Source: a virus
Taxonomy: Duplodnaviria; Heunggongvirae; Uroviricota; Caudoviricetes
Direction: 5' to 3' (one strand)
IMG/VR virus record: IMGVR_UViG_3300018080_000111
DNA: 64,000 bases
This document shows, in pieces, positions 51,962 to 64,000 of this stretch. Position 1 is the stretch's first letter, and each line of letters opens with the position of its first letter. The notes beneath the pieces are model-generated. The model was not told where the DNA came from and did no database searches. It worked only from the letters and a program-made list of their open reading frames with translations. The position numbers and the translations under genes were made by a program.

Positions 51962-54232
51962 ATGTCTTTTATTCGTAAGAATTTTGCCAGGGGAACATTA
52001 GCTTCAGATCTAGGAGCTGGTGCTGTCCAACTAGAAGTCCAGGCAGGACATACCCTCCCTACTTCGGTAGGAAGTTTCCGTCTTGTCATTTGGGACAATA
52101 CAAATTTTCCCGATCCAGCGGACGACCCTCTTTTGGAAATAGTCACGGCATCTTATTCTGGAACCCCCAATTTTTATGACATTGTACGTGCTCAGGAGGA
52201 TACTTCAGACGTAGCACATTCTACTGGAAACAGAGCCGCATTACACTATACGGCCGGAATGTCAGAAGATGATATTTATACTTCCTCTGATTTTGATACT
52301 GATTTCGCTGGAAAGGATCTGGATGATCTTGCTGCTGGGGTCACAAATATCCATTTAACTGTAGCATTAAAATTGGAGTATGATGCAGCATACTCCCATG
52401 TTTCCAGCGATGGCAGCGATCATAGTTTTATAGACCAGGATGTAACAGCTACAGGGGATCCCCAATTTAATTCTATATCTTCTTTGTCCACTCCATTATC
52501 CGTTTCTAATGGTGGTACTGGTGCAGCCACGTTTACAGATCATTCGTTACTTGTTGGTTCTGGTACAGATGCTTTTACAGCTTTAGGTGCAGCCACTAAT
52601 GGCCAACTGCCTATTGGTTCTACTGGTGCTGATCCAGTTCTTGCTACCTTAACTGAAGGGGCAAATATTACAATCACAAATGGAGCAGGTAGTATCACTA
52701 TTGCTGCGGATGTAGATTTCGCTACAGGTATTGATGGAACAACTAATCAGATTACTGTAACAGATGATGGGGATGACACTATTACTCTATCTCTTCCACA
52801 AGATTATGACACTGGTGCAACACCTACTCTTGGTAATCTTACTCTTAGTGGTACTGAGAATGTAGGACTTGATCTATCTGGTGGTACGTGGGCCAATGCT
52901 AATATTAATCTTGCAGCTAATCCAGTTATTCAACATGGTGGTATTCAACTATTGAAAGTTGACGACACAAATTCTAATTTCTTCCTTGGTTCCGATGTGT
53001 TTCAAAATGACAATGGACAATACAATGTAGGAATTGGATACCAAGCCGGTTATTATAATGATACTACCGGAGGAGTAAATAATGGAGACCACAACACTTA
53101 TATTGGATATTGGGCTGGATATGGTAGTGGTAGCTCTAATAAAGGAGCAAACAACACAGCTATTGGGTCCTCTGCATTAAAAAATAATACCACTGGTCAA
53201 AATAATTTAGGGCTTGGAAAGGAAGCTTGTTACTATAATACAACAGGTATTTATAATACTGCAATTGGTACATTTGCCAGCCGAGCAAACAGAACAGGTA
53301 GTTACAACGTAGCTATCGGATCATCGGCGTTACTCAATAATACATCAAGTGTTAATTTAGGAATTGGTTACTCGGCATTAGGTAGTGAAGCTACAAATGG
53401 TGAAAACATTGCTATTGGTACATATGCTGGCAGGTATCAAAATGGCGGCTCATATAATACTATTATTGGTCGAGACGCCTCTTACCGAAATGTGACGGGA
53501 GATCGAAATGTAATTATAGGCCACTCATCCGCGTATGGTGTAGCAGCACAATCGCACTCCAGAAATGTGTTTATTGGTGAAAGATCGGCTTATTCAAATA
53601 CAACTGGTTCAGACAATGTATTTCTTGGGTATCGGTCAGGTTATCGTCAAACCACCAACTCTAATCTTCTTATTATTGATAATCAAGACCGTGGTTCGGC
53701 AGCTAACGAAGCCGCTAATTCATTGTTATATGGTGTGTTTAACGCAGCACCCTCCAGTCAATATCTAAAGGTAAACGGTGATCTATACCTAAGCGGTGAC
53801 AACCGTAAGATATATATGGGTGCTGGCAATGATGCTGAGATTTATTATGATGGCACTAATCTTATACTTAGTACCAAAGTAGTGGGCACAGGTGGATTAT
53901 CCATTACTGGTGGTTTTATAGCAACACCGGATGAGATTACTGCTACAGACGCCGGAGTAGCTGCTTCGATATATACAACCAATACTGAAGTCACAACAAA
54001 TGGAGACAGTGACCTTGATAATGTTACATTAGCAAATGGAACAAGCGGACAAGTCAAACATATTTATTGTGTAGCCCAAGGCAATGCGGCAGACACGTGG
54101 AAGATTACACCAGCCAATATGGTAGGCGGAACACAGATTACCTTTTCCGGTGCTGGCGAAGGCTGCACTTTAGTCTATGCCGACAACGAAGGGTGGGTTG
54201 TGGTTGCAAACAATGGCGGAACAATAACATAA
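51962..54232 (+). CDS. tail fibre/spike with extensive short NxxIGxxAL-type beta-helical repeats
   Basis: 756 aa. Repeats ...NTAIGSSALKNNTTGQNN.G.G... N-terminal domain shared with 15146. Confidence 0.6.
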   Translation: MSFIRKNFARGTLASDLGAGAVQLEVQAGHTLPTSVGSFRLVIWDNTNFPDPADDPLLEIVTASYSGTPNFYDIVRAQEDTSDVAHSTGNRAALHYTAGMSEDDIYTSSDFDTDFAGKDLDDLAAGVTNIHLTVALKLEYDAAYSHVSSDGSDHSFIDQDVTATGDPQFNSISSLSTPLSVSNGGTGAATFTDHSLLVGSGTDAFTALGAATNGQLPIGSTGADPVLATLTEGANITITNGAGSITIAADVDFATGIDGTTNQITVTDDGDDTITLSLPQDYDTGATPTLGNLTLSGTENVGLDLSGGTWANANINLAANPVIQHGGIQLLKVDDTNSNFFLGSDVFQNDNGQYNVGIGYQAGYYNDTTGGVNNGDHNTYIGYWAGYGSGSSNKGANNTAIGSSALKNNTTGQNNLGLGKEACYYNTTGIYNTAIGTFASRANRTGSYNVAIGSSALLNNTSSVNLGIGYSALGSEATNGENIAIGTYAGRYQNGGSYNTIIGRDASYRNVTGDRNVIIGHSSAYGVAAQSHSRNVFIGERSAYSNTTGSDNVFLGYRSGYRQTTNSNLLIIDNQDRGSAANEAANSLLYGVFNAAPSSQYLKVNGDLYLSGDNRKIYMGAGNDAEIYYDGTNLILSTKVVGTGGLSITGGFIATPDEITATDAGVAASIYTTNTEVTTNGDSDLDNVTLANGTSGQVKHIYCVAQGNAADTWKITPANMVGGTQITFSGAGEGCTLVYADNEGWVVVANNGGTIT

Positions 54233-55217: not shown

Positions 55218-55610
55218 ATGGCGACAAAAATATCTACAATCTGGTCGGAAATTGATCCAAACTTTGTTCCAGACTCTAAAGGTCTTTTAAAGACAGTTAC
55301 AAATGTGGACTCCGTGAAGGCAGCGATAAATAATATCCTGAAGACTCGGAAGGGTGAGCGGGTAATGATTCCTTCCTTTGGGTCCTCTCTTCAGGATATT
55401 CTTTTTGAACCCTTAAATTCTACTGGGATTAAATTGCTTTCTAGAACAATAAAAGAGGACATCGAAAGATGGGACGATCGGGTGGTGATAGAGAATGTGG
55501 AGATTTATCCAAACCCAGATGAATCTAGTTTATCCTTAACAATTGGATTCCGAATAAAGGGATTTACAAATATATTCAGCCATTCGGTTGATTTTGGAGG
55601 TGAGATGTAA
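55218..55610 (+). CDS. baseplate wedge protein gpW/gp25 family
   Basis: ILKTRKGERVMIPSFGSSLQDILFEP matches the GPW_gp25 core. Confidence 0.7.
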   Translation: MATKISTIWSEIDPNFVPDSKGLLKTVTNVDSVKAAINNILKTRKGERVMIPSFGSSLQDILFEPLNSTGIKLLSRTIKEDIERWDDRVVIENVEIYPNPDESSLSLTIGFRIKGFTNIFSHSVDFGGEM

Positions 55611-57343
55611 TGACAGCTAATCCTCTAAGTTACGTGGCATATGATTTCGATCAACTTGTAAGTCAAATACAGAATCGACTTTCTGCCCAGGATGCCTGGA
55701 AGGATATTTATAGAGACGGCGCTGGGCAGATGTTAATTGAGTTCTTAGCGTATGTGGCAAATTTAGGACTTTATTATACAGAGAGAAGAGCAGAGGAGAC
55801 ATATCTCCCGACTGCAAAATTGCTTTCTAGTGTTAAGAATATTGTAGCAGTTTTGAACTATCAGGCTCGGAGGAAAACCTCCTCGACTGGAGTTCTGACT
55901 TTTAGTATTGATACAGCTCTTAGTAAGATAGTATATATTCCAAAATATACTGAGTGCCAAACAACTGGGGGAACTAAATTTGTTACGAATGAATCTGCGG
56001 CAATAGAAAAAGGTCAGACATCTGTAGACGTTAATGCGGTTCAGGGGGAGCTTGTTCAGAAACAGGTTACTTCGGATGGTTCCACAGAACAAGAATATCT
56101 TGTGAATGATGAGGATGTGGAGAATTCCGCGGATACAGATAATCCAACTTTTCGAGTCATTATTGATGGAACAGAATGGACAAAAGTTTCGTCCTTTTTA
56201 TACTCCACATCAACTTCAGAACATTTTCGAGTGATCAATGAGCCCGAAGGAACCATTAGCGTTCTTTTTGGGGATGATGTGAATGGAAAATCTCCTGAGG
56301 CGGGATCCACTATTGTGATACAGTATATTCGAACAGATGGAGCAGATGGAAATGTGACCTATTCTGGATCTCCCTCTATAACGACGGTCAATTCAACCAT
56401 CTATGATGAGGATGGGGATATAGTTACCGTCTCAGTAACCCACGACTCCTCTTTTTTGGGAGGAAGTGATGAGGAGACCATTGAGGAAATTCGGTACAAT
56501 GCTCCTCGGGTATTCAGTACCGGAGAGCGTGCGGTAACAAAGGACGATTTTATCGCAATTTTGGAGAACTACTCTAGCGTTGCCAGTGCAAATGTTTGGG
56601 GAGAAAATGAGGAGGCCGAAGCTTCGGGGGAAACCGCAGACTACGAAATGCTAAATAAGGTGAAGATGTGCCTAGTTTTACAGAGCTGGGAGCTACCAGA
56701 TGCAACATTTAAGTCGACCTTATCAGATTACATTTACGAGTTATCTATGTTGACGGTAAAGTATGAATTTATTACCCCCACCTTCTTGTTAGTAATTCCC
56801 CGTCTTAATGTGAAGGTCAGTCAGGGATACTCTTTATCTCAAACCCAGGCGGACATTGAAGAGGAATTAGCAGACCAGTTTCTTCTAGGAACTACCACCA
56901 AATTAGGAACCAGGATCAAGTATAGCAATGTTCTTTCTGCAGTGGATGATCTGGAGGGTGTTTCGTATACTTCCATGGTTCTAGAGATAAAAAAGGTTCT
57001 CAGCAGTTCATACGATTCATCCTATGATTGGGGAGCCGCTTTGGACGCGGTTGATATTCTTCCAGAAACAGCCCGGGTATTTATTGATGGTACATATGTT
57101 ACTGTGGATGAAAATGGGGGATCTGGAACGGGTTCTTTTGATGGAACTTCTGGCGGATATACTATATCAGGAAGTAGTATAAATTATTCCACAGGAGTGG
57201 TTCTTATGAATATCTCCCCTACTCCAAGTTCAGTTTATATTTTGTATCAGCAAGATGAGGAGAGTCAGTCGATTGTTCCATCTTTCAACCAGATTTGTCG
57301 GTTGTCCGATGTTAATATTGAATCCATTTCCATGGAATCTTAG
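55610..57343 (+). CDS. baseplate J-like protein
   Basis: 577 aa immediately after gpW, as in P2/Mu-type baseplates. Confidence 0.55.
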   Translation: MTANPLSYVAYDFDQLVSQIQNRLSAQDAWKDIYRDGAGQMLIEFLAYVANLGLYYTERRAEETYLPTAKLLSSVKNIVAVLNYQARRKTSSTGVLTFSIDTALSKIVYIPKYTECQTTGGTKFVTNESAAIEKGQTSVDVNAVQGELVQKQVTSDGSTEQEYLVNDEDVENSADTDNPTFRVIIDGTEWTKVSSFLYSTSTSEHFRVINEPEGTISVLFGDDVNGKSPEAGSTIVIQYIRTDGADGNVTYSGSPSITTVNSTIYDEDGDIVTVSVTHDSSFLGGSDEETIEEIRYNAPRVFSTGERAVTKDDFIAILENYSSVASANVWGENEEAEASGETADYEMLNKVKMCLVLQSWELPDATFKSTLSDYIYELSMLTVKYEFITPTFLLVIPRLNVKVSQGYSLSQTQADIEEELADQFLLGTTTKLGTRIKYSNVLSAVDDLEGVSYTSMVLEIKKVLSSSYDSSYDWGAALDAVDILPETARVFIDGTYVTVDENGGSGTGSFDGTSGGYTISGSSINYSTGVVLMNISPTPSSVYILYQQDEESQSIVPSFNQICRLSDVNIESISMES

Positions 57344-57359
57344 ATTTAGAGGTAGAAAT

Positions 57360-57872
57360 ATGAGTTGGCGTGATGCTTATGAATGTTTGTGGACATTCCA
57401 ACATATTCGGGATGGAAAAGTAATTTACGAATTTAGGGACAAGAAAAATATACTTGTAGATGAAGGGGAACTTGCAACCATCGACACCTTTTTTAGGGAC
57501 AATGCTTCTCTATATTTTCCAGGGGATTACTTCTATATTGGGCTATATAAAGGGACAGTGGTGGAAACTAGTACCTTGGCCACAATACCAAATGAACCCG
57601 CAGCAGCAAATGGATATGCCAGAATTGCTGTCGAAAGATCCTCGGTGGGATTCCCTACAATTGAGCAGAATGAGGATGGGAATTGGCAGGTTGTGTCTAA
57701 GGAGGTCACATTTACTGCGTCTGGTGGGAATATTGGACCAGTTAATGGGGCGTTTCTCTGCACCTCATCAGATAATACCGGATCTCTTATTGGGGCCGTG
57801 GCGGCAAGTGTGGAAAGAACCATATTGTCTGGTGATAATTCAAAACTTTCCTTAACGTTTAGGCAAAAGTAA
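57360..57872 (+). CDS. tail-fibre-associated adaptor-like protein, paralog A (start re-assigned to ATG 57360)
   Basis: GAGGT RBS 7 nt upstream. Related to 59027..59422 (NGYAR motif). Its C-terminus AVAASVERTILSGDNSKLSLTFRQK is echoed by the remnant at 58921. Confidence 0.5.
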   Translation: MSWRDAYECLWTFQHIRDGKVIYEFRDKKNILVDEGELATIDTFFRDNASLYFPGDYFYIGLYKGTVVETSTLATIPNEPAAANGYARIAVERSSVGFPTIEQNEDGNWQVVSKEVTFTASGGNIGPVNGAFLCTSSDNTGSLIGAVAASVERTILSGDNSKLSLTFRQK

Positions 57873-57875
57873 TTT

Positions 57876-58934
57876 ATGGCTTCAATTTACGATTATTATA
57901 ATACAGGGAATGATAGTTTTCATTCATTAAAAGGATCTGATAATTTAGCAGCACAAATTTTTACTGCCTCTGATGATTACAAGATTTTGTCTGTTAAGTT
58001 GCTATTGCAGCGTAGAACAGGAGATCCGGGGACTGTTACTGTTGAATTGCAAGGGGTGGGAGACTTTGGATCTGGAGAAGTGCCTGATGGTAATGTATTT
58101 GCAACTGGGTCGATTGCAGGAGGGGGTATTACACTTGCTGATGGAGGGGAGTGGGTAGAAATAACTTTTGATTCTGAATATTCATTAACTTCAGGATCTA
58201 AATACTCGATTGTATTGTCAATTTCAGTTGATCAATTTTATCTTAGATGGTTGAATGATAGTTCCTCTCCTTCCTATGCTGGCGGAGCAGCTGCGGTATA
58301 TGCTTTGGGTTCCTGGTCAACAGCAGCTACCCGGGATGAGTTGTTTGAAACTTGGGGAAACCCTGCTGGTACCCCTCCAACTATCACCGATCAAACATCT
58401 TCTCCCCAAGATGCAGATTATGAAGATGATATAACATTCTCTGTCACAGTTACAGGCACTGAACCTATAACATACCAATGGTATAAAGATGGTAGTCCAA
58501 TTTCTGGGGAGACAAATTCTACCTTATCCCTTTCTTCCGTAGACGCAGATGATGGGGGAACTTATTATTGCATAGCAACAAATGCAGGGGGATCTGCTCA
58601 ATCATCTGATATAGATCTTAGAATTATACCCTATATAACTGCACAATCCTCCAGTACTTCTTTTTCTTTGGGGGCATTATCCTCTATCTCAGTTACGGCG
58701 GATGGTTTTCCTTCAGTAACTTATCAATGGTATAAAAATGGAAGTCCTATTTCTGGAGCTACTTCTTCAACATATTCTTTTTATGCAGCATCTTCAGATG
58801 CAGGAACGTATAAATGTATCGCAACAAATGCGGCTGGATCCGCAACTTCTAGTGATATTGTTTTAACTATTGTTTCTAATCCTTATGTATATAGCTTCTT
58901 TAATCTTCCACATGATATAACAAGGGAGCAGTAG
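57876..58934 (+). CDS. receptor-binding/fibre protein with two Ig-like domains and conserved C-terminal FFNLPHDITREQ
   Basis: TYQWYKDGSPISGE..GGTYYCIATNAGGSA appears twice (Ig I-set-like). Confidence 0.55.
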   Translation: MASIYDYYNTGNDSFHSLKGSDNLAAQIFTASDDYKILSVKLLLQRRTGDPGTVTVELQGVGDFGSGEVPDGNVFATGSIAGGGITLADGGEWVEITFDSEYSLTSGSKYSIVLSISVDQFYLRWLNDSSSPSYAGGAAAVYALGSWSTAATRDELFETWGNPAGTPPTITDQTSSPQDADYEDDITFSVTVTGTEPITYQWYKDGSPISGETNSTLSLSSVDADDGGTYYCIATNAGGSAQSSDIDLRIIPYITAQSSSTSFSLGALSSISVTADGFPSVTYQWYKNGSPISGATSSTYSFYAASSDAGTYKCIATNAAGSATSSDIVLTIVSNPYVYSFFNLPHDITREQ

Positions 58935-58994
58935 CATCTTCGGTTGAGAGAACAATTCTTTCTGGGGATAGTTTAATAATTTCATTAAAGATTC
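58921..58994 (+). pseudogene. remnant 3' end of an adaptor-like gene (paralog of 57360..57872)
   Basis: Translates AVASSVERTILSGDSLIISLKIRQK*, against the C-terminus of 57360..57872, AVAASVERTILSGDNSKLSLTFRQK*. Confidence 0.55.
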
Positions 58995-59026
58995 GACAGA
59001 AGTAGTAACTACGATTGGAGATATAA

Positions 59027-59422
59027 ATGGCTGGTTTTTCTAATTATTTAAGAAATGAACTTTTGGACCATCTTTTTGGAAAAGATACATACTCTTCTCC
59101 ATCCAATATATATGTTGCTCTTTCAACTACTGCACCTTCTGGGGATGGGTCTGGGGTCACAGAACCTTCCGGAAATGGATATGCAAGAGCATCTACAGAT
59201 TCTGCGGATTGGTCTTCTGCATCTTCTTTTGAAATACAGAATACCTCAGAAATCTCATTTCCGGAATCCACCGGATCTTGGGGAACAATAACTCATTTTG
59301 TATTATATGATGCTGCGTCTGGTGGGAATATGTTGGCGTATGGTTCTCTTTCTGCCTCGCAAAGTGTAGCTGCTGGGAAAACCGCAAGATTTTCATCGGG
59401 GGCCTTATCGGTAACCCATTAG
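59027..59422 (+). CDS. tail-fibre-associated adaptor-like protein, paralog B
   Basis: 131 aa. Shares ..P.GNGYAR...and overall pattern with 57360..57872. Confidence 0.5.
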   Translation: MAGFSNYLRNELLDHLFGKDTYSSPSNIYVALSTTAPSGDGSGVTEPSGNGYARASTDSADWSSASSFEIQNTSEISFPESTGSWGTITHFVLYDAASGGNMLAYGSLSASQSVAAGKTARFSSGALSVTH

Positions 59423-59431
59423 GATTTATAA

Positions 59432-61090
59432 ATGCCCATCGAAGATTTTACAACATACAGTGAAACTGATCCAGGATCCACTGTTACAAAAACCAGTGAT
59501 ACAATCACCTGGGCCCTTCTCTCTACTAGGAATACAAGCAGTTATGTCTATAAGGATTTTGGCGCGGGTTACTTTGGTGGAGATTTTTCTCATAGGTTTG
59601 AAGTAACCGCCACTGGGTATGGGGGAGTCACCCCTTATGCCTCCGTTTGGGGACTTGCAAATGCGGTTGATGATTTTCAAGGGATAGATGACTCAGGGGG
59701 GGATTATCAGTCGGTAGTTCTAGTAAACAGCGGTGGTACGTACTTTCTGCAGCTGAGGATTTGTGAGGATGGCGGGGTATCCTTATCCAATCAAGCAATC
59801 TCAGTTAGCACTAAGTACTATGTAACCGTTGAGAGGGATGATGATGGTGGAACAAATGGAACCGGTAGATTGACCTTGCGGGTATACACAGGAAATTACT
59901 ATGGGGAATCCGGGGCGGTAGAAATAGGAACGGTTACCTTGGATTGTGGGGTTGGTGAGCAGAATGATTTCCGATATCTATATGCGACATCCTCATTCAA
60001 TACCGGAGACGCTGGAAAAACCCTAAATGCAACCATAGAGAATTTGGATCTACTTCTTGTAGTTGAGCTAGAATCTGCTTTTCCAACCGCAACGGCGTTA
60101 ACGAATATTCCAGAACCAAAGGAACAATTTGGATTTGAAGAGTTAAATGGCGTCTTATATGCAGTCGCTGGGATAACCACTGGGGACACCCATTCAAAAA
60201 CAACTTACGCATTCGATATTTCAGCCGGAACATGGTCTCAAAAAACTGATGCTCCGGTCTCCTTACAGAGTCCAGTTTTAAGGGCTGTAAATGGAAAACT
60301 ATATTTAATAGGTGGGTATAGGAGTGATTTAGGAACTTATTACGACACAGTCTATGAATATGATCCGGATCTGGATTCTTGGACCGCGAAAACTTCTATG
60401 CCGGTAGCGAGAGAAGATCATGCATCCGCCGTTATTAATGATAAGATTTATATTTTTGGTGGTCTGAAATCTCCTCCCCACACCCTGGTTCCTTATGTCG
60501 ATATATATGATCCGGCACTGGATACCTGGGGAACCAGAAGGGCTTGGGCCGCCCCCAGGGCTTTAGGGGATTATGCCTGCTCCTATGAATATAATGGGAA
60601 GATCTATATAGTAAGTTCTACAGCGGACATGTCTGGATACTCCGCTGATTTGAAAGCTACCACAGAAGTATTTGAATACGATCCAGAAACAGATATATTT
60701 ACAGCAAAAACAAATTGTCCTGAGGCAGTTTGTTATAAAGAAGTTTCAAATATAGATGGGGTTCTATATGTGGTAAGTGGGGCTACTGACGATACTGTGA
60801 CATATTCTTTATATGATCAGGTTTATGACATATCCTTAGATTTATGGAAGAAGAGACCCACCTCTTCCTACTCGGCAAGAGGAATCAGCATGGCGGCTTA
60901 TAGTGGAAGTATTTATATCTGTGGTGGATTTGATAATGATTCTGGTCAGTTGGATAGTTTTTACCGATTGACGCCCCCACCAGCTTCCTCTATTTCGGGT
61001 GCTTCTGGAACTTTATCTTTGGTTTCTCGGGTTGATCCGGTAAGCTCCCACTTTTTTAATTTGCCATATGACATAACGAGGGAACAGTAG
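59432..61090 (+). CDS. receptor-binding protein with Kelch-type beta-propeller and C-terminal FFNLPYDITREQ
   Basis: Repeated GKLYLIGGY, DKIYIFGGL, GKIYIVSS, GVLYVVSG and GSIYICGGFD blades. Confidence 0.6.
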   Translation: MPIEDFTTYSETDPGSTVTKTSDTITWALLSTRNTSSYVYKDFGAGYFGGDFSHRFEVTATGYGGVTPYASVWGLANAVDDFQGIDDSGGDYQSVVLVNSGGTYFLQLRICEDGGVSLSNQAISVSTKYYVTVERDDDGGTNGTGRLTLRVYTGNYYGESGAVEIGTVTLDCGVGEQNDFRYLYATSSFNTGDAGKTLNATIENLDLLLVVELESAFPTATALTNIPEPKEQFGFEELNGVLYAVAGITTGDTHSKTTYAFDISAGTWSQKTDAPVSLQSPVLRAVNGKLYLIGGYRSDLGTYYDTVYEYDPDLDSWTAKTSMPVAREDHASAVINDKIYIFGGLKSPPHTLVPYVDIYDPALDTWGTRRAWAAPRALGDYACSYEYNGKIYIVSSTADMSGYSADLKATTEVFEYDPETDIFTAKTNCPEAVCYKEVSNIDGVLYVVSGATDDTVTYSLYDQVYDISLDLWKKRPTSSYSARGISMAAYSGSIYICGGFDNDSGQLDSFYRLTPPPASSISGASGTLSLVSRVDPVSSHFFNLPYDITREQ

Positions 61091-61092
61091 AA

Positions 61093-62361
61093 ATGAGTGA
61101 ATGGCGATTTGATGGTGGCTATCGTTATGACGCTTCCGCAGCTGCTGTGATCGAAGCGGAGATGGAGGTGGAAATCACCTGGCAGTATACTCACCGCCCC
61201 TTTGATGGTTTGGCCGTCGAAATGGAAATGGAGATTGATGTAAATTGGGTCCATGCGGTTTCCCTAGATCTTCTTCGCCTCCTTCCTGAATGGTTCCACA
61301 ACAAACAGATTCTACAAGATTATGTGGATGAGGTTGAACTAGAGGTTGGTAGTTGGTTAACTTATGTCCGAGATATGGTAAAGTTGAACAATCCGAATTC
61401 GGTAGCAGATAGAGAATATCTAAAGAATTTGGCTTCTCTAATTGGTTTGGACATTCCTCCGGAGGATGACTCTACTGAGGATGAAATACGTAGAACAATA
61501 GCTCAGGCAATTGATTGGTATAAGATAAAAGGTACCTATGAATCCATATTAGTTATAGCTCTGATACAAAAGTTTTCAGTCAATATATATGATATGTATA
61601 CTAATGACTATGAAACCTTTTATCTTACAGATTGGTTTGTAGGTGAAGAAGATGAGAATCCCCCCGGGTTCGACTCGACATACTATAAGAGTCCTCATTT
61701 TGGGATTGAGATTCTTTTAAACCAGGTATATACATCGGGCTCTGGATCCGGGGGTTCTGGTGGTAGTGGTTCTGGGGGTTCTTCGGCCAATCATTTATGG
61801 AGAACCACATACCTGGATAACTTTTATGATAACGTGGAACTAACTAGACCGGTTCATACGGTTCCTCATTATATTTTATATTTGAACCCAAAGACGGATG
61901 AGTTTGGGCATGTTATTGAGGTCGATGGAAATATCCAAACCCGGGTTTTAGATGGTTGGGAATTTGCTACAAAATATTTTGATTCCGTTGTAGATAGTTC
62001 TGCTTGGTATTTTGATGATCTGATTTCCTACTTTGATGATTCGGCTACCTCCTTTTTAAATAGCATTACGAAATGGGTGTTAGGTACTGGAAGTGGGGAT
62101 ATTAATCAATCTACTTGGACCCCAGTGTCCCCGGCTCTTACGGGAGCGGTGGATAGTGGAGATATTGAGGTGGATGATGAGAAGATAAGTATTTCCTTCT
62201 TGGTCCCTAAGAATGTGTCTCAAAATGGGATTCGTGAATTAGCGCTTTATACGAATACAGATGTAATTGTATTGGGGGGTACCTTCCCATCGATTGACAA
62301 GGATTCGAGGGTAGAATTAAAGGTAACCATCCAAATTTATAAAGAAGATTTGAGAACATAA
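61093..62361 (+). CDS. tail fibre/baseplate protein with internal GSGSGGSGGSGSGGSS linker
   Basis: 422 aa. Gly/Ser linker at 61738-61790. Confidence 0.5.
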   Translation: MSEWRFDGGYRYDASAAAVIEAEMEVEITWQYTHRPFDGLAVEMEMEIDVNWVHAVSLDLLRLLPEWFHNKQILQDYVDEVELEVGSWLTYVRDMVKLNNPNSVADREYLKNLASLIGLDIPPEDDSTEDEIRRTIAQAIDWYKIKGTYESILVIALIQKFSVNIYDMYTNDYETFYLTDWFVGEEDENPPGFDSTYYKSPHFGIEILLNQVYTSGSGSGGSGGSGSGGSSANHLWRTTYLDNFYDNVELTRPVHTVPHYILYLNPKTDEFGHVIEVDGNIQTRVLDGWEFATKYFDSVVDSSAWYFDDLISYFDDSATSFLNSITKWVLGTGSGDINQSTWTPVSPALTGAVDSGDIEVDDEKISISFLVPKNVSQNGIRELALYTNTDVIVLGGTFPSIDKDSRVELKVTIQIYKEDLRT

Positions 62362-62371
62362 GAGGTAAGAA

Positions 62372-63499
62372 ATGGCCACTAATATTGGAAATCAGGTCGT
62401 GAACTTGTTGTATCACTCTCGTGCCGATAGTGGTACAGTGAATAAAAGATTCGTTGGAATACGAAAGACTGGAATATATTCTGGGGGATATCTCTCTATT
62501 GTGGACAATTCTCATGCAAGTTTATCCACTTTAGTATGTGAGATTACTGATGGGACATATCAAGTAAAAATCTTAACTGGATCTGCGGTAAGTATAGCGG
62601 TAGCTTCTGCGACCCCCTATCTGGTTTTGAGGTGGGTGTATACTGGAAGCGCAACGGCGGATTACATGTCTATTCTGGCGGTTGCTTCTCCGGCAACAAA
62701 TGATTTAGTTGTTGGTATGTGTACCTTCACTGGAGGTGGGAATTTACAAGGATTCGATTACTCCGAAAGAACGTCCCCAAATACCCAGGACCTGTTTTTG
62801 AAGGTCGAGCCAACTGAGGATACCGAACTCCGGGTTCGTGTCAGAGCCGGCCGGATTCAAAATGGAAAAGAAACTATCAGTATTCCTGACCAAAAAACAA
62901 GTCTATTTACTCTTCCATCGTCGAATAGCAAAATTTATTTGGTTTATGTAAATCGAGCAACCGGGGCGATATCAATTGATAGTTCTGGAACTGCTGCGGC
63001 ATCTCCGGTAGCTCCTAATTACGACGGAAAATTGGTCCTTGCTGAGATAACTCTAACATCTACTGCTACAAATATCACATCAAGCAATATTCAGGATGTT
63101 CGGGATTTTACAAACAACTCATATGACCCGGACGATTCCACCCTTGAGGTGAATAGTAATGGAAAATTATCTCTAAAAGATTCTGGTATTCCTTCCACAA
63201 AGTTTAAAACATACGATAGTGGTTGGTTTGCGGTGAGCACCGGAACTACCTATACGAAGGCACACGGGTTGGGATATGAGCCTTTTATGGTCCAGTTGTG
63301 GTTAAGTGATTCTCCCTTTGGAACTGATTTAGTTCTTCCTCCACCACATGGGAGGCAATTTCTTTATGGGATGTGCGTCGTAGATTTGGATTCCACAAAT
63401 ATTAGAGTCCGGGGATCTGGAAGGATCTTTGATTGTATCGACAAAGATGGAAATGTGAAATCGGTATCATCCGGATACGCCAGAATAAAGGCCATATAA
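62372..63499 (+). CDS. tail fibre protein, tandem paralog 1
   Basis: PYLVLRW..Y.......Y..I.A.AS....NDL..G.C.F.G.....FDYS.R paralogous to the next ORF. Confidence 0.5.
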   Translation: MATNIGNQVVNLLYHSRADSGTVNKRFVGIRKTGIYSGGYLSIVDNSHASLSTLVCEITDGTYQVKILTGSAVSIAVASATPYLVLRWVYTGSATADYMSILAVASPATNDLVVGMCTFTGGGNLQGFDYSERTSPNTQDLFLKVEPTEDTELRVRVRAGRIQNGKETISIPDQKTSLFTLPSSNSKIYLVYVNRATGAISIDSSGTAAASPVAPNYDGKLVLAEITLTSTATNITSSNIQDVRDFTNNSYDPDDSTLEVNSNGKLSLKDSGIPSTKFKTYDSGWFAVSTGTTYTKAHGLGYEPFMVQLWLSDSPFGTDLVLPPPHGRQFLYGMCVVDLDSTNIRVRGSGRIFDCIDKDGNVKSVSSGYARIKAI

Positions 63500-63522
63500 T
63501 AGGGGAAGGATAATGGGAACAA

Positions 63523-64000
63523 CTAATCATGGAACACAATCTATTTCGGTAGCATATTACGAGGAAGCTACTTCTTTAGAGGCCAATAAACGTAATTTAG
63601 ATATAGTCCCTAGGGGGATATACTCTGGAGGATATCTAACTCGGGTATCCGATGTAGCAGTCACTTTATCTACCTTTACCGCGGAGTTGGGAGATGATAG
63701 TTCTCAGATTAGTGTGAAAACATCCTCTTCAGCAACCTTAAATGCCTCGACATTGGATTCTGGGGATATTGATCCTAGCACTCCCTACTTGGTTTTGCGA
63801 TGGTCCTATGCTGCGGCACAGAATAATTATGTAGAGATTCATGCCATTGCTTCTGTCAGTGCGGCTCAGGATAATGATCTTATTATTGGAAAATGTGTCT
63901 TCTCTGGGGCTACCCTAACAAGCTTTGACTATTCCGATAGAAGTTTTTTAAATGTTCAGGATTTAATTCTAAAAGTTATTGATGATAGTGGGCTGTATGT
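63523..64000 (+). CDS. tail fibre protein, tandem paralog 2 (partial, runs off the window end)
   Basis: ATG 63523. Same conserved blocks as 62372..63499. Confidence 0.45.

What the first reader, a model, noticed from the sequence alone, without database searches (positions are those of the whole stretch)
58921..58994. Fossil 3' end of an adaptor-like gene between two RBP cassettes
Directly after the first RBP stop, one frame encodes AVASSVERTILSGDSLIISLKIRQK*, clearly homologous to the C-terminus of 57360..57872 (AVAASVERTILSGDNSKLSLTFRQK*). An intact paralogous adaptor-like gene (59027) follows. This marks a recombination junction. RBP modules appear to be exchanged as [adaptor][RBP] cassettes, with conserved gene ends as cross-over points.
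Basis: seen in the sequence. Interest (0 to 1): 0.5.

Follow-up and report, generated by a model that had tools for sequence, protein, structure and literature searches.

The report
Recombination scar between two phage receptor-binding modules
A dead 81-base copy of the end of a small baseplate-fibre gene sits between two receptor-binding genes of an uncultured myovirus; it marks where two alternative receptor-binding modules seen in relatives were joined in tandem, an ordinary kind of phage mosaicism.

Summary
Window 58925-59005 (26 codons plus stop) is an orphan copy of the 3' end of gene A (57360-57872): 20/27 codons and 54/81 nt match, and tblastn over the whole window gives E=4e-6. It has no start codon, and it overlaps the last 10 nt of RBP1.

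About 35 related contigs show what it is. The stretch between baseplate genes J and I has alternative states:
- **X-type:** J-A-[Ig-type RBP]-I.
- **Y-type:** J-A-B-[Kelch RBP]-I.
- **Without an RBP:** J-A-I or J-I.

The window carries both modules in tandem (A-IgRBP-fossil-B-KelchRBP-I). Its nearest relative, L001, is plain Y-type. The fossil, the spacer and B are colinear with L001's A-end, spacer and B. The fossil resembles L001's A end (22/26 aa) more than the window's own (19/26).

The junction is a 10-nt overlap (GGAGCAGTAG) shared by the RBP tail (...REQ*) and the interior of A (GAVA...), so recombination at a microhomology is the likely cause.

"[adaptor][RBP] cassettes" holds only for B plus the Kelch RBP, because A is a fixed backbone gene. 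No function for the fossil is indicated. This is an ordinary, well-documented example of phage RBP mosaicism.

The parts
55610..57343 (+). Baseplate J-like gene; conserved left anchor of the locus
   Evidence: Pfam Baseplate_J E=1e-12 and phrog_219 baseplate wedge E=6e-70. It is 49-89% identical in 16 viral contigs.
57360..57872 (+). Gene A: 170-aa Gp80-like protein, a conserved backbone gene immediately after J
   Evidence: PF23140 at 29.7 bits against a cutoff of 27. AlphaFold model pLDDT 82; Foldseek hits 8jou_a (GP4 Fiber I) with TM 0.51/0.61. At least 138 homologues found. Present in X-type, Y-type and RBP-less loci.
57792..57872 (+). Intact copy of the repeated 81 nt (A codons 145-170 plus stop)
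   Evidence: Aligned to the fossil at 54/81 nt and to the L001 A end at 63/81. In the A model these residues are the last two beta-strands (143-155 and 160-169).
57876..58934 (+). RBP1: 352-aa canonical Ig-type receptor-binding/fibre protein (N-terminal domain, two Ig domains, C-terminal tail)
   Evidence: Pfam Ig_3, I-set and Ig_2. Its N-domain and Ig domains match the gene that follows A in X-type relatives. It is absent from L001.
58896..58934 (+). RBP1 C-terminal tail FFNLPHDITREQ*
   Evidence: Differs from the RBP2 tail at 7 of 39 nt but at only 1 amino acid. The tail motif NPYxYxxFNxxxDxxR ends the Ig-type RBPs in relatives; its last part, FNxxxDxxR, also ends the Kelch RBPs.
58925..58934 (+). 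10-nt junction overlap GGAGCAGTAG, read as ..(R)EQ* in the RBP1 frame and as GAV(A) in the fossil frame
   Evidence: Homology to the RBP2 and L001 tails runs up to 58934. Homology to A 3' ends starts at 58925. The stretch also carries the Shine-Dalgarno-like GGGAG that precedes the I start codon downstream of RBP2.
58925..59005 (+). Fossil F: orphan 3' end (26 codons plus TAG) of an A-type gene
   Evidence: There is no in-frame start codon and no listed ORF. Its nearest known A C-terminus is that of L001, at 22/26 aa.
59006..59026 (+). Spacer with the ribosome-binding site (GGAG) of B, colinear with the A-B spacer of L001
   Evidence: Alignment A2; 12/21 nt identical to the L001 spacer.
59027..59422 (+). 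Gene B: 131-aa bona fide Gp80-family protein, partner gene of the Kelch RBP
   Evidence: PF23140 E=2e-42. PDB 8jou_a E=6e-12. It always lies directly upstream of the Kelch RBP in L001, L111-L115 and, in an unrelated contig, L029.
59432..61090 (+). RBP2: 552-aa Kelch beta-propeller receptor-binding protein with the same C-terminal tail (61052-61090)
   Evidence: Kelch Pfam families. 68% identical to the L001 orthologue. Full-length homologues occupy the same J-A-B-Kelch-I context.
61093..62361 (+). P2 gpI-like baseplate gene; conserved right anchor of the locus
   Evidence: Pfam Tail_P2_I E=9e-5. It follows the RBP in all X-type and Y-type relatives whose contigs reach that far.

Best explanation
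The 81-nt fragment is a non-functional scar, and the mechanism has four parts.

1. **Two alternative modules.** In this group of uncultured myoviruses, the space between baseplate genes J-A and I holds one of two alternative receptor-binding modules. One is a single Ig-type RBP gene (X-type). The other is a two-gene module, B (Gp80 family) plus a Kelch RBP (Y-type). In both, the last ~13-25 codons of the RBP are a backbone-specific 'tail' that abuts gene I.

2. **How the window arose.** An X-type and a Y-type genome of the same clade recombined ectopically. The end of the X-type RBP gene (...AGG GAG CAG TAG) paired with a near-identical 10-nt string inside gene A of the Y-type genome (GGA GCN GTA GC, codons 145-148). 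Strand exchange or template switching there joined J-A-RBP1 to [A codons 145-170]-spacer-B-Kelch RBP-I.

3. **The result.** The phage has both modules in tandem. The 26 carried-over codons of A lost their start and the first 85% of the gene. They survive only as the native upstream flank of B and are decaying.

4. **Shown versus inferred.** Shown here: the homology; the colinearity with L001; the alternative X and Y states; the overlap at the junction; and the absence of coding or RNA signals. Inferred: the order of events and the microhomology mechanism.
For: 1. The homology is significant and runs end to end, with coincident stop codons.

2. The nearest relative, L001, is sister to the window at J (89% aa), A (84% aa) and the first ~75 codons of I, the part its contig holds (69% aa). 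It has J-A-B-Kelch-I. Relative to L001 the window carries a 1,133-nt extra segment flanked by the two 81-nt copies.

3. The fossil, the spacer and B are colinear with L001's A-end, spacer and B. The fossil is closer to L001's A end (63/81 nt, 22/26 aa) than to the window's own A end (54/81 nt, 19/26 aa). This includes a shared TCN serine codon where the window's A has AGT.

4. Y-type loci exist independently in several backbone lineages (L001, L111/L112, L113, L114, L115). X-type loci are the majority. On an A-protein tree the Y-types are interleaved with X-types, so both parental forms are real and co-circulate.

5. The 10 nt at 58925-58934 belong to both homologies.

6. The fossil encodes only the last two beta-strands of the A fold. 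It has no start codon. It shows no unusual RNA fold (z=-1.4), no terminator-like site, only a weak promoter-like match (9 of 12) in a region with no excess of such matches over shuffles, and no Rfam match.

7. Among the 34 related loci scanned by motif, only the window has an orphan A end.
Against: - The 81-nt segment cannot resolve a tree. The window's A end and the fossil are equally distant from L001 (18 differences each), and fossil-specific and A-specific changes are equal in number (10 each). 'The fossil came from a Y-type parent' therefore rests on colinearity and a few shared states.
- Window and L001 are about 22-32% diverged in DNA everywhere. No parental breakpoints can be mapped, and no X-type genome with a close RBP1 was found (best 46% aa).
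- A history by tandem duplication followed by module replacement, with later deletion in L001, explains the same anatomy.
- The microhomology was identified after the fact, from descendant sequences.
- The junction could not be re-observed in an independent contig.
Confidence: 0.65

Rival explanations
1. Intragenomic tandem duplication followed by replacement. An X-type ancestor duplicated the segment [A codons 145-170 ... RBP end] by ectopic exchange between sister genomes at the same 10-nt microhomology. The body of the second RBP copy was then replaced by a foreign B-Kelch module. L001 later lost RBP1 by recombination between the two 81-nt direct repeats.
For: The structure is exactly a direct-repeat-flanked unit: A end ... 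tail, then A end ... tail. Both tails and both A ends carry clade-specific states, with REQ* in RBP1, RBP2 and L001. L001's A end sits midway between the two window copies, with only 1 unique change, and it looks fossil-like at its ends and A-like in the middle, as a repeat-mediated deletion product might. Direct repeats favour such deletions.
Against: It needs three events instead of two. It also requires a separate origin of the Y-type arrangement, yet Y-type loci without any fossil exist in at least three other backbone lineages, so a Y-type parent was available. The mosaic pattern in 81 nt is confounded by multi-base codon changes and has no statistical weight.
Confidence: 0.22
2. A whole [A2-B-Kelch RBP] block from a Y-type phage was first inserted downstream of RBP1. 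The redundant second A copy was later truncated by an internal deletion that removed its first 144 codons, up to the RBP1 stop.
For: It gives the same end product. Redundant paralogues are often trimmed in size-constrained phage genomes. L115 shows a partly duplicated, broken B gene in the same locus, so such intermediates do occur.
Against: No intermediate with two complete A genes was seen among the 34 related loci scanned for A-type C-termini. The first step would itself need an illegitimate junction between the RBP1 stop and the A2 upstream region, so it adds an event.
Confidence: 0.08
3. The fragment is functional. It could be translated as a -1 frameshift extension of RBP1, giving RBP1 the two C-terminal strands of A, or it could act as an RNA or regulatory element for B.
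For: The frame is still open with the original stop, and differences from L001 are concentrated at third codon positions (4, 3 and 11 by position). The fragment lies in the -1 frame of RBP1, overlapping its stop.
Against: There is no slippery heptamer in the 19 nt (58916-58934) between the TGA that opens the fossil frame and the RBP1 stop. RBP2 and all other RBPs of the group end at the tail without such an extension. Fossil-specific changes are spread evenly over codon positions (3, 3, 4) and include four amino-acid changes in 26 residues. The RNA fold is not unusual (z=-1.4); there is no terminator-like site, no excess of promoter-like matches over shuffles, and no Rfam hit at the fragment. 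The third-position bias is expected if the piece was part of a working gene until recently.
Confidence: 0.03
4. The pattern is chance similarity or an assembly chimera of two co-occurring strains.
For: The contig comes from a metagenome, and the junction could not be re-fetched from a second assembly.
Against: The window-wide E-value is 4e-6, with coincident stops. A 10-nt overlap is far too short to mislead a k-mer assembler. The window's A, RBP1 and RBP2 proteins are each recorded on two contigs, the longest 144,859 bp, from three sources.
Confidence: 0.02

Closest known systems
Modular exchange of tail-fibre or tailspike genes at conserved flanks (for example P2/Mu/P1 tail-fibre mosaics and T-even gp37/gp38 recombination at conserved motifs, recalled from own knowledge; anchor-plus-exchangeable-RBP architectures in Klebsiella phages, PMC6872550; tailspike modularity and horizontal transfer, PMC10408124, both found and known to me only from title and abstract)
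   Same: Non-homologous receptor-binding modules (Ig-type RBP versus B plus Kelch RBP) occupy the same slot between conserved flanks in related genomes. The module type is incongruent with the backbone tree.
   Different: The conserved right flank is a short C-terminal tail of the RBP itself that is specific to the backbone clade. The usual conserved part is an N-terminal anchor domain. One of the alternative modules is a two-gene unit. The fossil was made by an ectopic join, not by the regular flank-to-flank exchange.
Illegitimate or microhomology-mediated recombination scars and gene remnants at mosaic boundaries in phage genomes (Hendrix/Hatfull model of phage mosaicism; recalled from own knowledge)
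   Same: A truncated gene fragment lies exactly at a novel joint, and a 10-nt sequence is shared by both parental partners at the joint.
   Different: Nothing essential. This is a textbook-like instance, documented here with a relative that shows the un-inserted state.
Ralstonia podophage GP4 Fiber I protein gp80 (PDB 8JOU; Pfam PF23140) and the Bas63 gp5 whisker
   Same: B is a clear sequence homologue (E=6e-12 to 8jou_a; PF23140 E=2e-42). A shares the fold more distantly.
   Different: In GP4 and Bas63 these subunits hang as dimers on a 'rope' peptide at the neck or collar (PMC12609058). Here the genes lie in the baseplate J-I cluster of a myovirus, next to RBP genes. Their position in the virion and any 'adaptor' role are untested.
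Phages with two or more receptor-binding proteins encoded in tandem (K1-5/SP6-like dual tailspikes, recalled from own knowledge; Ackermannviridae branched TSP complexes, bioRxiv 10.1101/2024.03.21.586117, found and known to me only from title and abstract)
   Same: Two intact, unrelated RBP genes lie side by side, plausibly broadening or diversifying host recognition.
   Different: There is no evidence here for a branching adaptor complex, and expression and incorporation of both RBPs are untested. Other relatives reach dual-RBP states by different joins (L014, L115).

Membership tests
Gene remnant / pseudogene fragment of gene A | Significant homology to part of an intact gene | tested here: met
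   19/26 aa at E=1e-10 pairwise, E=4e-6 window-wide, 54/81 nt.
Gene remnant / pseudogene fragment of gene A | Lacks a start codon and most of the coding sequence, so it cannot make a folded product | tested here: met
   The frame is open only from 58916, with no ATG, GTG or TTG and no listed ORF. It covers only the last two beta-strands of the 170-aa model.
Gene remnant / pseudogene fragment of gene A | Relaxed constraint (substitutions even over codon positions, frame damage) | tested here: inconclusive
   Fossil-specific changes are 3, 3 and 4 by codon position, with four amino-acid changes, but the frame and stop are intact. 81 nt gives no statistical power.
Pfam PF23140 Gp80 (GP4 Fiber I protein) | HMM score above the curated gathering threshold | tested here: met
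   B scores 144.9 bits and A scores 29.7 bits against a cutoff of 27.
Pfam PF23140 Gp80 (GP4 Fiber I protein) | Same fold as the solved GP4 gp80 chain (8JOU) | tested here: met
   B matches 8jou_a by phmmer at E=6e-12. The A model (pLDDT 82) hits 8jou_a by Foldseek with probability 1.00 and TM 0.51/0.61, a moderate match.
Pfam PF23140 Gp80 (GP4 Fiber I protein) | Assembles as dimers on an extended 'rope' peptide to form a fibre or whisker | not testable with these tools
   Known for GP4 and Bas63 only from cryo-EM (PMC12609058). No complex prediction was run.
Module exchange between conserved flanks | Alternative non-homologous inserts between the same conserved flanks in related genomes | tested here: met
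   X-type, Y-type and RBP-less loci all lie between J-A and I.
Module exchange between conserved flanks | Module distribution incongruent with the backbone phylogeny | tested here: met
   Y-type loci fall in at least three places among X-types on an NJ tree of 114 A residues, which is a crude tree. Tails follow the backbone, not the RBP body.
Programmed -1 ribosomal frameshift site | Slippery heptamer X XXY YYZ upstream of the overlap, with a stimulatory structure downstream | tested here: not met
   No such heptamer in 58916-58934. The downstream fold is not unusual, z=-1.4.
Simple tandem duplication | Two adjacent homologous copies of the whole unit | tested here: not met
   Only the unit ends are repeated: 81 nt of A, and about 25 codons of the RBP C-terminus. 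RBP1 and B-RBP2 bodies are unrelated.
P2-like baseplate gene cluster (W-J-I) | GPW/gp25-like, Baseplate_J and Tail_P2_I genes in order | tested here: met
   J and I are identified by Pfam. The W homologue carries PF04965 in L110 and L111. The order is conserved in relatives.

The most novel reading that the evidence does not exclude
The short backbone-specific C-terminal tail (FFNLPxDITREQ in this clade) may be a portable docking peptide. It would plug any RBP body, Ig-type or Kelch-type, into the baseplate through the adjacent gpI-like protein. Together with the conserved end of gene A it would form a dedicated pair of 'linkers'. These would let this phage group swap, and occasionally stack, receptor-binding modules. 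The fossil would then be a by-product of a recurrent route to dual-RBP phages with wider host range.
Probability: 0.25. Interest if true: 0.45.

Novelty: new member of a known kind. Interest (0 to 1): 0.25.

Why it matters
It gives a clean, base-resolved example of how a phage acquires a second receptor-binding module. The un-inserted state is preserved in a relative, and a 10-nt microhomology sits at the joint.

It also defines a previously undescribed variable locus in an uncultured group of ~145-kb myoviruses. The locus has three recurrent states: Ig-type RBP, Gp80-plus-Kelch RBP, or none. In every RBP-bearing state the RBP ends in a backbone-specific C-terminal tail.

That is useful for annotating such metagenomic phages and for RBP-swapping designs. 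It does not change how phage mosaicism is understood.

Tried and rejected
- **Cultured-phage search.** Distant blastn of 55600-62400 against 50,697 GenBank phage records gave no match, so no annotated relative is available.
- **Mapping breakpoints.** Sliding identity of window against L001 is uniformly about 65-85% across J-A and about 53-84% across RBP2. No breakpoint is visible.
- **Rooting the three 81-nt copies with outgroups** (L098-L102, L110 and others). They are too diverged: 24-38 differences in 81 nt.
- **Searching for a closer RBP1.** The best full-length homologue is 46% identical (P0003 = L110, X-type).
- **Re-fetching the window's own contig or junction from other assemblies** failed. 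Exact-protein look-ups for RBP1 and A were not on record. The 29-nt junction string is absent from IMG/VR.
- **RNA or regulatory role for the fragment.** The RNA fold z-score is -1.4. There is no terminator-like site at the fragment, promoter-like matches show no excess over shuffles, and there is no Rfam family.
- **Frameshift extension of RBP1.** No slippery site was found.
- **PDB sequence searches** with the N-terminal domains of RBP1 and RBP2 gave nothing meaningful.
- **The GP4 structure paper** (J Mol Biol 2023, PMID 37660940) is not held. GP4 Fiber-1 architecture is taken second-hand from PMC12609058 and PMC11445570.
- **Other orphan A ends.** None were found in the 34 related loci scanned.
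Full report
**1. The observation**

The region holds these genes on the + strand:
- W (55218-55610)
- Baseplate J (55610-57343)
- A (57360-57872, 170 aa)
- RBP1 (57876-58934, 352 aa, two Ig-like domains)
- B (59027-59422, 131 aa)
- RBP2 (59432-61090, 552 aa, Kelch propeller)
- A P2 gpI-like gene (61093-62361)

Between RBP1 and B, the frame 58925-59005 reads GAVASSVERTILSGDSLIISLKIRQK*. The C-terminus of A reads GAVAASVERTILSGDNSKLSLTFRQK*.

Formal tests support the match:
- BLASTP gives 19/26 identical, E=1e-10 for the pair.
- tblastn of A against the whole window finds only A and this fragment (E=4e-6).
- The ungapped DNA identity is 54/81, which is P of about 3e-9 after correcting for all window positions.
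- Both copies stop at the same aligned codon.

The fragment overlaps the last 10 nt of RBP1 in the -1 frame. Its frame opens only at 58916, and it has no ATG, GTG or TTG.

**2. What A and B are**

- Both hit Pfam PF23140 (Gp80, 'Podophage GP4 fiber I protein'): B at E=2e-42 and A just above threshold at 29.7 bits.
- B matches PDB 8JOU chain a at E=6e-12.
- An AlphaFold model of A built on 49 homologues (pLDDT 82) hits 8jou_a by Foldseek with TM 0.51/0.61.
- In GP4 and Bas63, such subunits hang as dimers on a 'rope' peptide to form fibres or whiskers (PMC12609058). 'Adaptor' is therefore an untested label here.
- In the A model, the residues covered by the fossil are the last two beta-strands (143-155 and 160-169), which cannot fold alone.

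**3. Relatives**

No cultured phage matches the region. The related loci came from four searches:
- Scans with A, J, RBP2 and B in IMG/VR.
- A scan with A in JGI metagenomes.
- Protein searches with RBP1, RBP2 and A.
- Context look-ups for individual proteins.

Together these gave about 35 loci of the same myovirus group. I annotated them against the window's proteins. The J..I locus has recurrent states:

| State | Gene order | Loci |
|---|---|---|
| X-type | J-A-[Ig-type RBP]-I | L006, L008-L013, L015/L016, L018, L098-L102, L110, L116 |
| Y-type | J-A-B-[Kelch RBP]-I | L001, L111/L112, L113, L114, L115 |
| No RBP | J-A-I | L017, L103, L105-L108 |
| No A, no RBP | J-I | L019 |

Some of these contigs end inside the RBP gene or before gene I; they are assigned from the genes they do hold. 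Three loci hold two RBPs, each by a different join:
- The window (A-IgRBP-fossil-B-Kelch-I).
- L014 (J-RBP-A-RBP-I).
- L115 (A-B-B'-Kelch-IgRBP).

Gene A is thus a fixed backbone gene, and what varies is what lies between its stop codon and gene I. On an NJ tree of A, the Y-type loci are interleaved with X-type loci. The modules have therefore moved between backbones repeatedly.

**4. The tail**

- Both window RBPs end in FFNLP[HY]DITREQ*. The two 39-nt tails differ at 7 bases but at only one amino acid, so the peptide is under selection in both genes.
- Across the group the Ig-type RBPs end in NPYxYxxFNxxxDxxR, and the Kelch RBPs share its last part, FNxxxDxxR. The variant follows the backbone clade, not the RBP body. 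REQ* occurs in window RBP1, window RBP2 and L001 RBP2. The Kelch tail of L114 resembles the Ig tail of L016.
- The last tail codons also contain the Shine-Dalgarno-like GGGA(G/A) that sits 9-10 nt before the I start codon.
- The exchangeable segment is therefore bracketed on the left by the end of A. On the right it is bracketed by the last ~13-25 codons of the RBP plus the start of I.

**5. The decisive comparison**

L001 is the window's nearest relative on both sides of the locus. It is 89% identical at J, 84% at A and 69% over the first ~75 residues of I (all its contig holds), against 79%, 71-76% and 53-57% for the next relatives.

L001 has A followed directly by B, then the Kelch RBP and I. 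Aligning the three sequences shows that the window's fossil, its 21-nt spacer and B are colinear with L001's A-end, spacer and B. Relative to L001, the window has 1,133 extra bases, flanked by the two 81-nt copies.

The fossil is closer to L001's A end (63/81 nt, 22/26 aa) than to the window's own A end (54/81 nt, 19/26 aa). L001's is the closest of 120 A-family C-termini. The shared states include TCT-TCN serine codons where the window's A has GCA-AGT.

**6. The junction**

Homology of RBP1 to the RBP2 and L001 tails runs through the stop codon at 58934. Homology of the fossil to A ends begins at 58925. The 10 nt GGAGCAGTAG (58925-58934) therefore belong to both. They encode (R)EQ* in one frame and GAV(A) in the other, and both readings are conserved in the respective homologues. 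This is the signature of an ectopic join at a microhomology.

**7. Best explanation and rivals**

The most economical history has two events:
1. A Y-type arrangement arose earlier, as seen in several lineages.
2. An ectopic exchange (or template switch) occurred between an X-type and a Y-type genome of the same clade at this 10-nt string. This placed [A codons 145-170]-spacer-B-Kelch-I behind an intact A-RBP1.

The carried-over codons became a fossil. I rate this at 0.65. Two rivals fit the same anatomy:
- Tandem duplication of [A end..RBP end], then replacement of the second RBP body, with L001 losing RBP1 by repeat-mediated deletion (0.22).
- Insertion of a whole A-B-Kelch block followed by truncation of the second A (0.08).

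The 81 nt cannot discriminate between these. The window's A end and the fossil are each 18 differences from L001. Unique changes are 10 and 10. L001 has only one unique change. Window and L001 are about 22-32% diverged throughout, so no breakpoints are visible.

A functional reading (frameshift extension, RNA element) finds no support. There is no slippery site, no unusual RNA fold, no terminator-like site, no excess of promoter-like matches and no Rfam match. No other RBP in the group has such an extension. Chance or assembly artefact is very unlikely. The window's A, RBP1 and RBP2 are each recorded on two contigs, the longest 144,859 bp. I could not, however, fetch a second copy of the junction.

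**8.

'Fossil 3' end' and 'recombination junction' are right. 'Conserved gene ends as cross-over points' is right for the regular X/Y module exchange, but not for the join that made the fossil, which is ectopic. '[adaptor][RBP] cassettes' is right only for B plus the Kelch RBP. That pair is also adjacent in the unrelated contig L029. A is backbone, not cassette.

**9. Novelty**

Exchange of RBP modules at conserved flanks, dual-RBP phages, and gene remnants at illegitimate joints are all well known (PMC6872550 and PMC10408124; P2/T-even literature from my own knowledge). This is a clear new instance in an undescribed, uncultured phage group. Its mildly unusual feature is that the conserved anchor-like element is a C-terminal, backbone-specific tail. 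Interest is low to moderate.

Noticed in passing
window 57715-57733 and 59313-59331: A and B share a 19-nt exact match (CTGCGTCTGGTGGGAATAT, encoding the ASGGN motif). The proteins are otherwise only about 22% identical. No shuffle of 300 reached 19 nt, and the longest A/B match in L001, L111 and L113 is 8-11 nt. It could be a short gene-conversion tract between the paralogues, or convergence on a motif.
   Followed up: partly
window 58896-58934 and 61052-61090; also the C-termini of RBPs in L001, L009-L018, L098-L102, L110-L115: Ig-type RBPs at this locus end in a short tail (NPYxYxxFNxxxDxxR-like); Kelch-type RBPs share its last part, FNxxxDxxR. The variant follows the backbone clade rather than the RBP body. 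The two window tails differ at 7/39 nt but at 1/13 aa. The tail also carries the ribosome-binding site of gene I. A C-terminal docking role is possible but untested.
   Followed up: partly
L115 222-3208: A Y-type relative has a partial tandem duplication of B. A 177-aa ORF holds B 1-130 plus B 4-51 again, followed by a 78-aa ORF matching B 69-128. A canonical Ig-type RBP N-domain starts directly at the Kelch RBP stop. This is a second, independent way of stacking both modules, in the opposite order and without an A fossil.
   Followed up: partly
L014 11736-15138: Another relative carries two Ig-type RBP genes, one inserted between J and A and one in the usual place after A (J-RBP-A-RBP-I). This is a third independent dual-RBP arrangement.
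   Followed up: no
L001 4-972; L005 7631-8521 and 10271-11134; L007 4410-4769; L010 1040-1933 and 3660-4406: Free-standing endonuclease-like genes sit at variable positions between W and J or between J and A in relatives, but not in the window. They show weak Pfam hits to DUF559 (Vsr-like fold) or NUMOD3, plus zinc ribbons; L005 10271-11134 has no Pfam hit and L010 1040-1933 was not scanned, and both are listed only because their C-termini resemble the DUF559-hit genes. If they are homing endonucleases, they could stimulate recombination next to the RBP locus.
   Followed up: partly
window 51962-54232: The 756-aa tail-spike-like protein (phrog_4636, phrog_23837) shares only its first ~105-117 residues with proteins of very different length at the same position in relatives (L005, L006, L017, L018, L113). 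This looks like a second modular RBP-like locus, with a conserved N-terminal anchor.
   Followed up: no
window 62372-63499 and about 63510-64000: The 375-aa protein after gene I has a paralogue immediately downstream, shown by direct-repeat families D4, D6 and D11. Most relatives with enough sequence downstream also carry two tandem paralogues with variable C-terminal halves, so this may be yet another variable fibre-like pair.
   Followed up: no
L029 7280-10036: In an unrelated viral contig, a protein with a B-like (Gp80) C-terminal domain is followed directly by a Kelch protein 45% identical to RBP2. Next comes a separate protein matching the RBP2 N-terminal domain. This supports Gp80-like plus Kelch RBP as a travelling unit.
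   Followed up: partly
L036-L097 (62 viral contigs, several of them from a single human-gut dataset): B-like Gp80 genes (38-45% identical) lie in a fixed context between a ~127-aa gene and a ~308-aa gene. PHROGs labels the family 'head protein' (phrog_240). The fold seems to be used at different virion sites, consistent with the neck whiskers of Bas63 and GP4.
   Followed up: no
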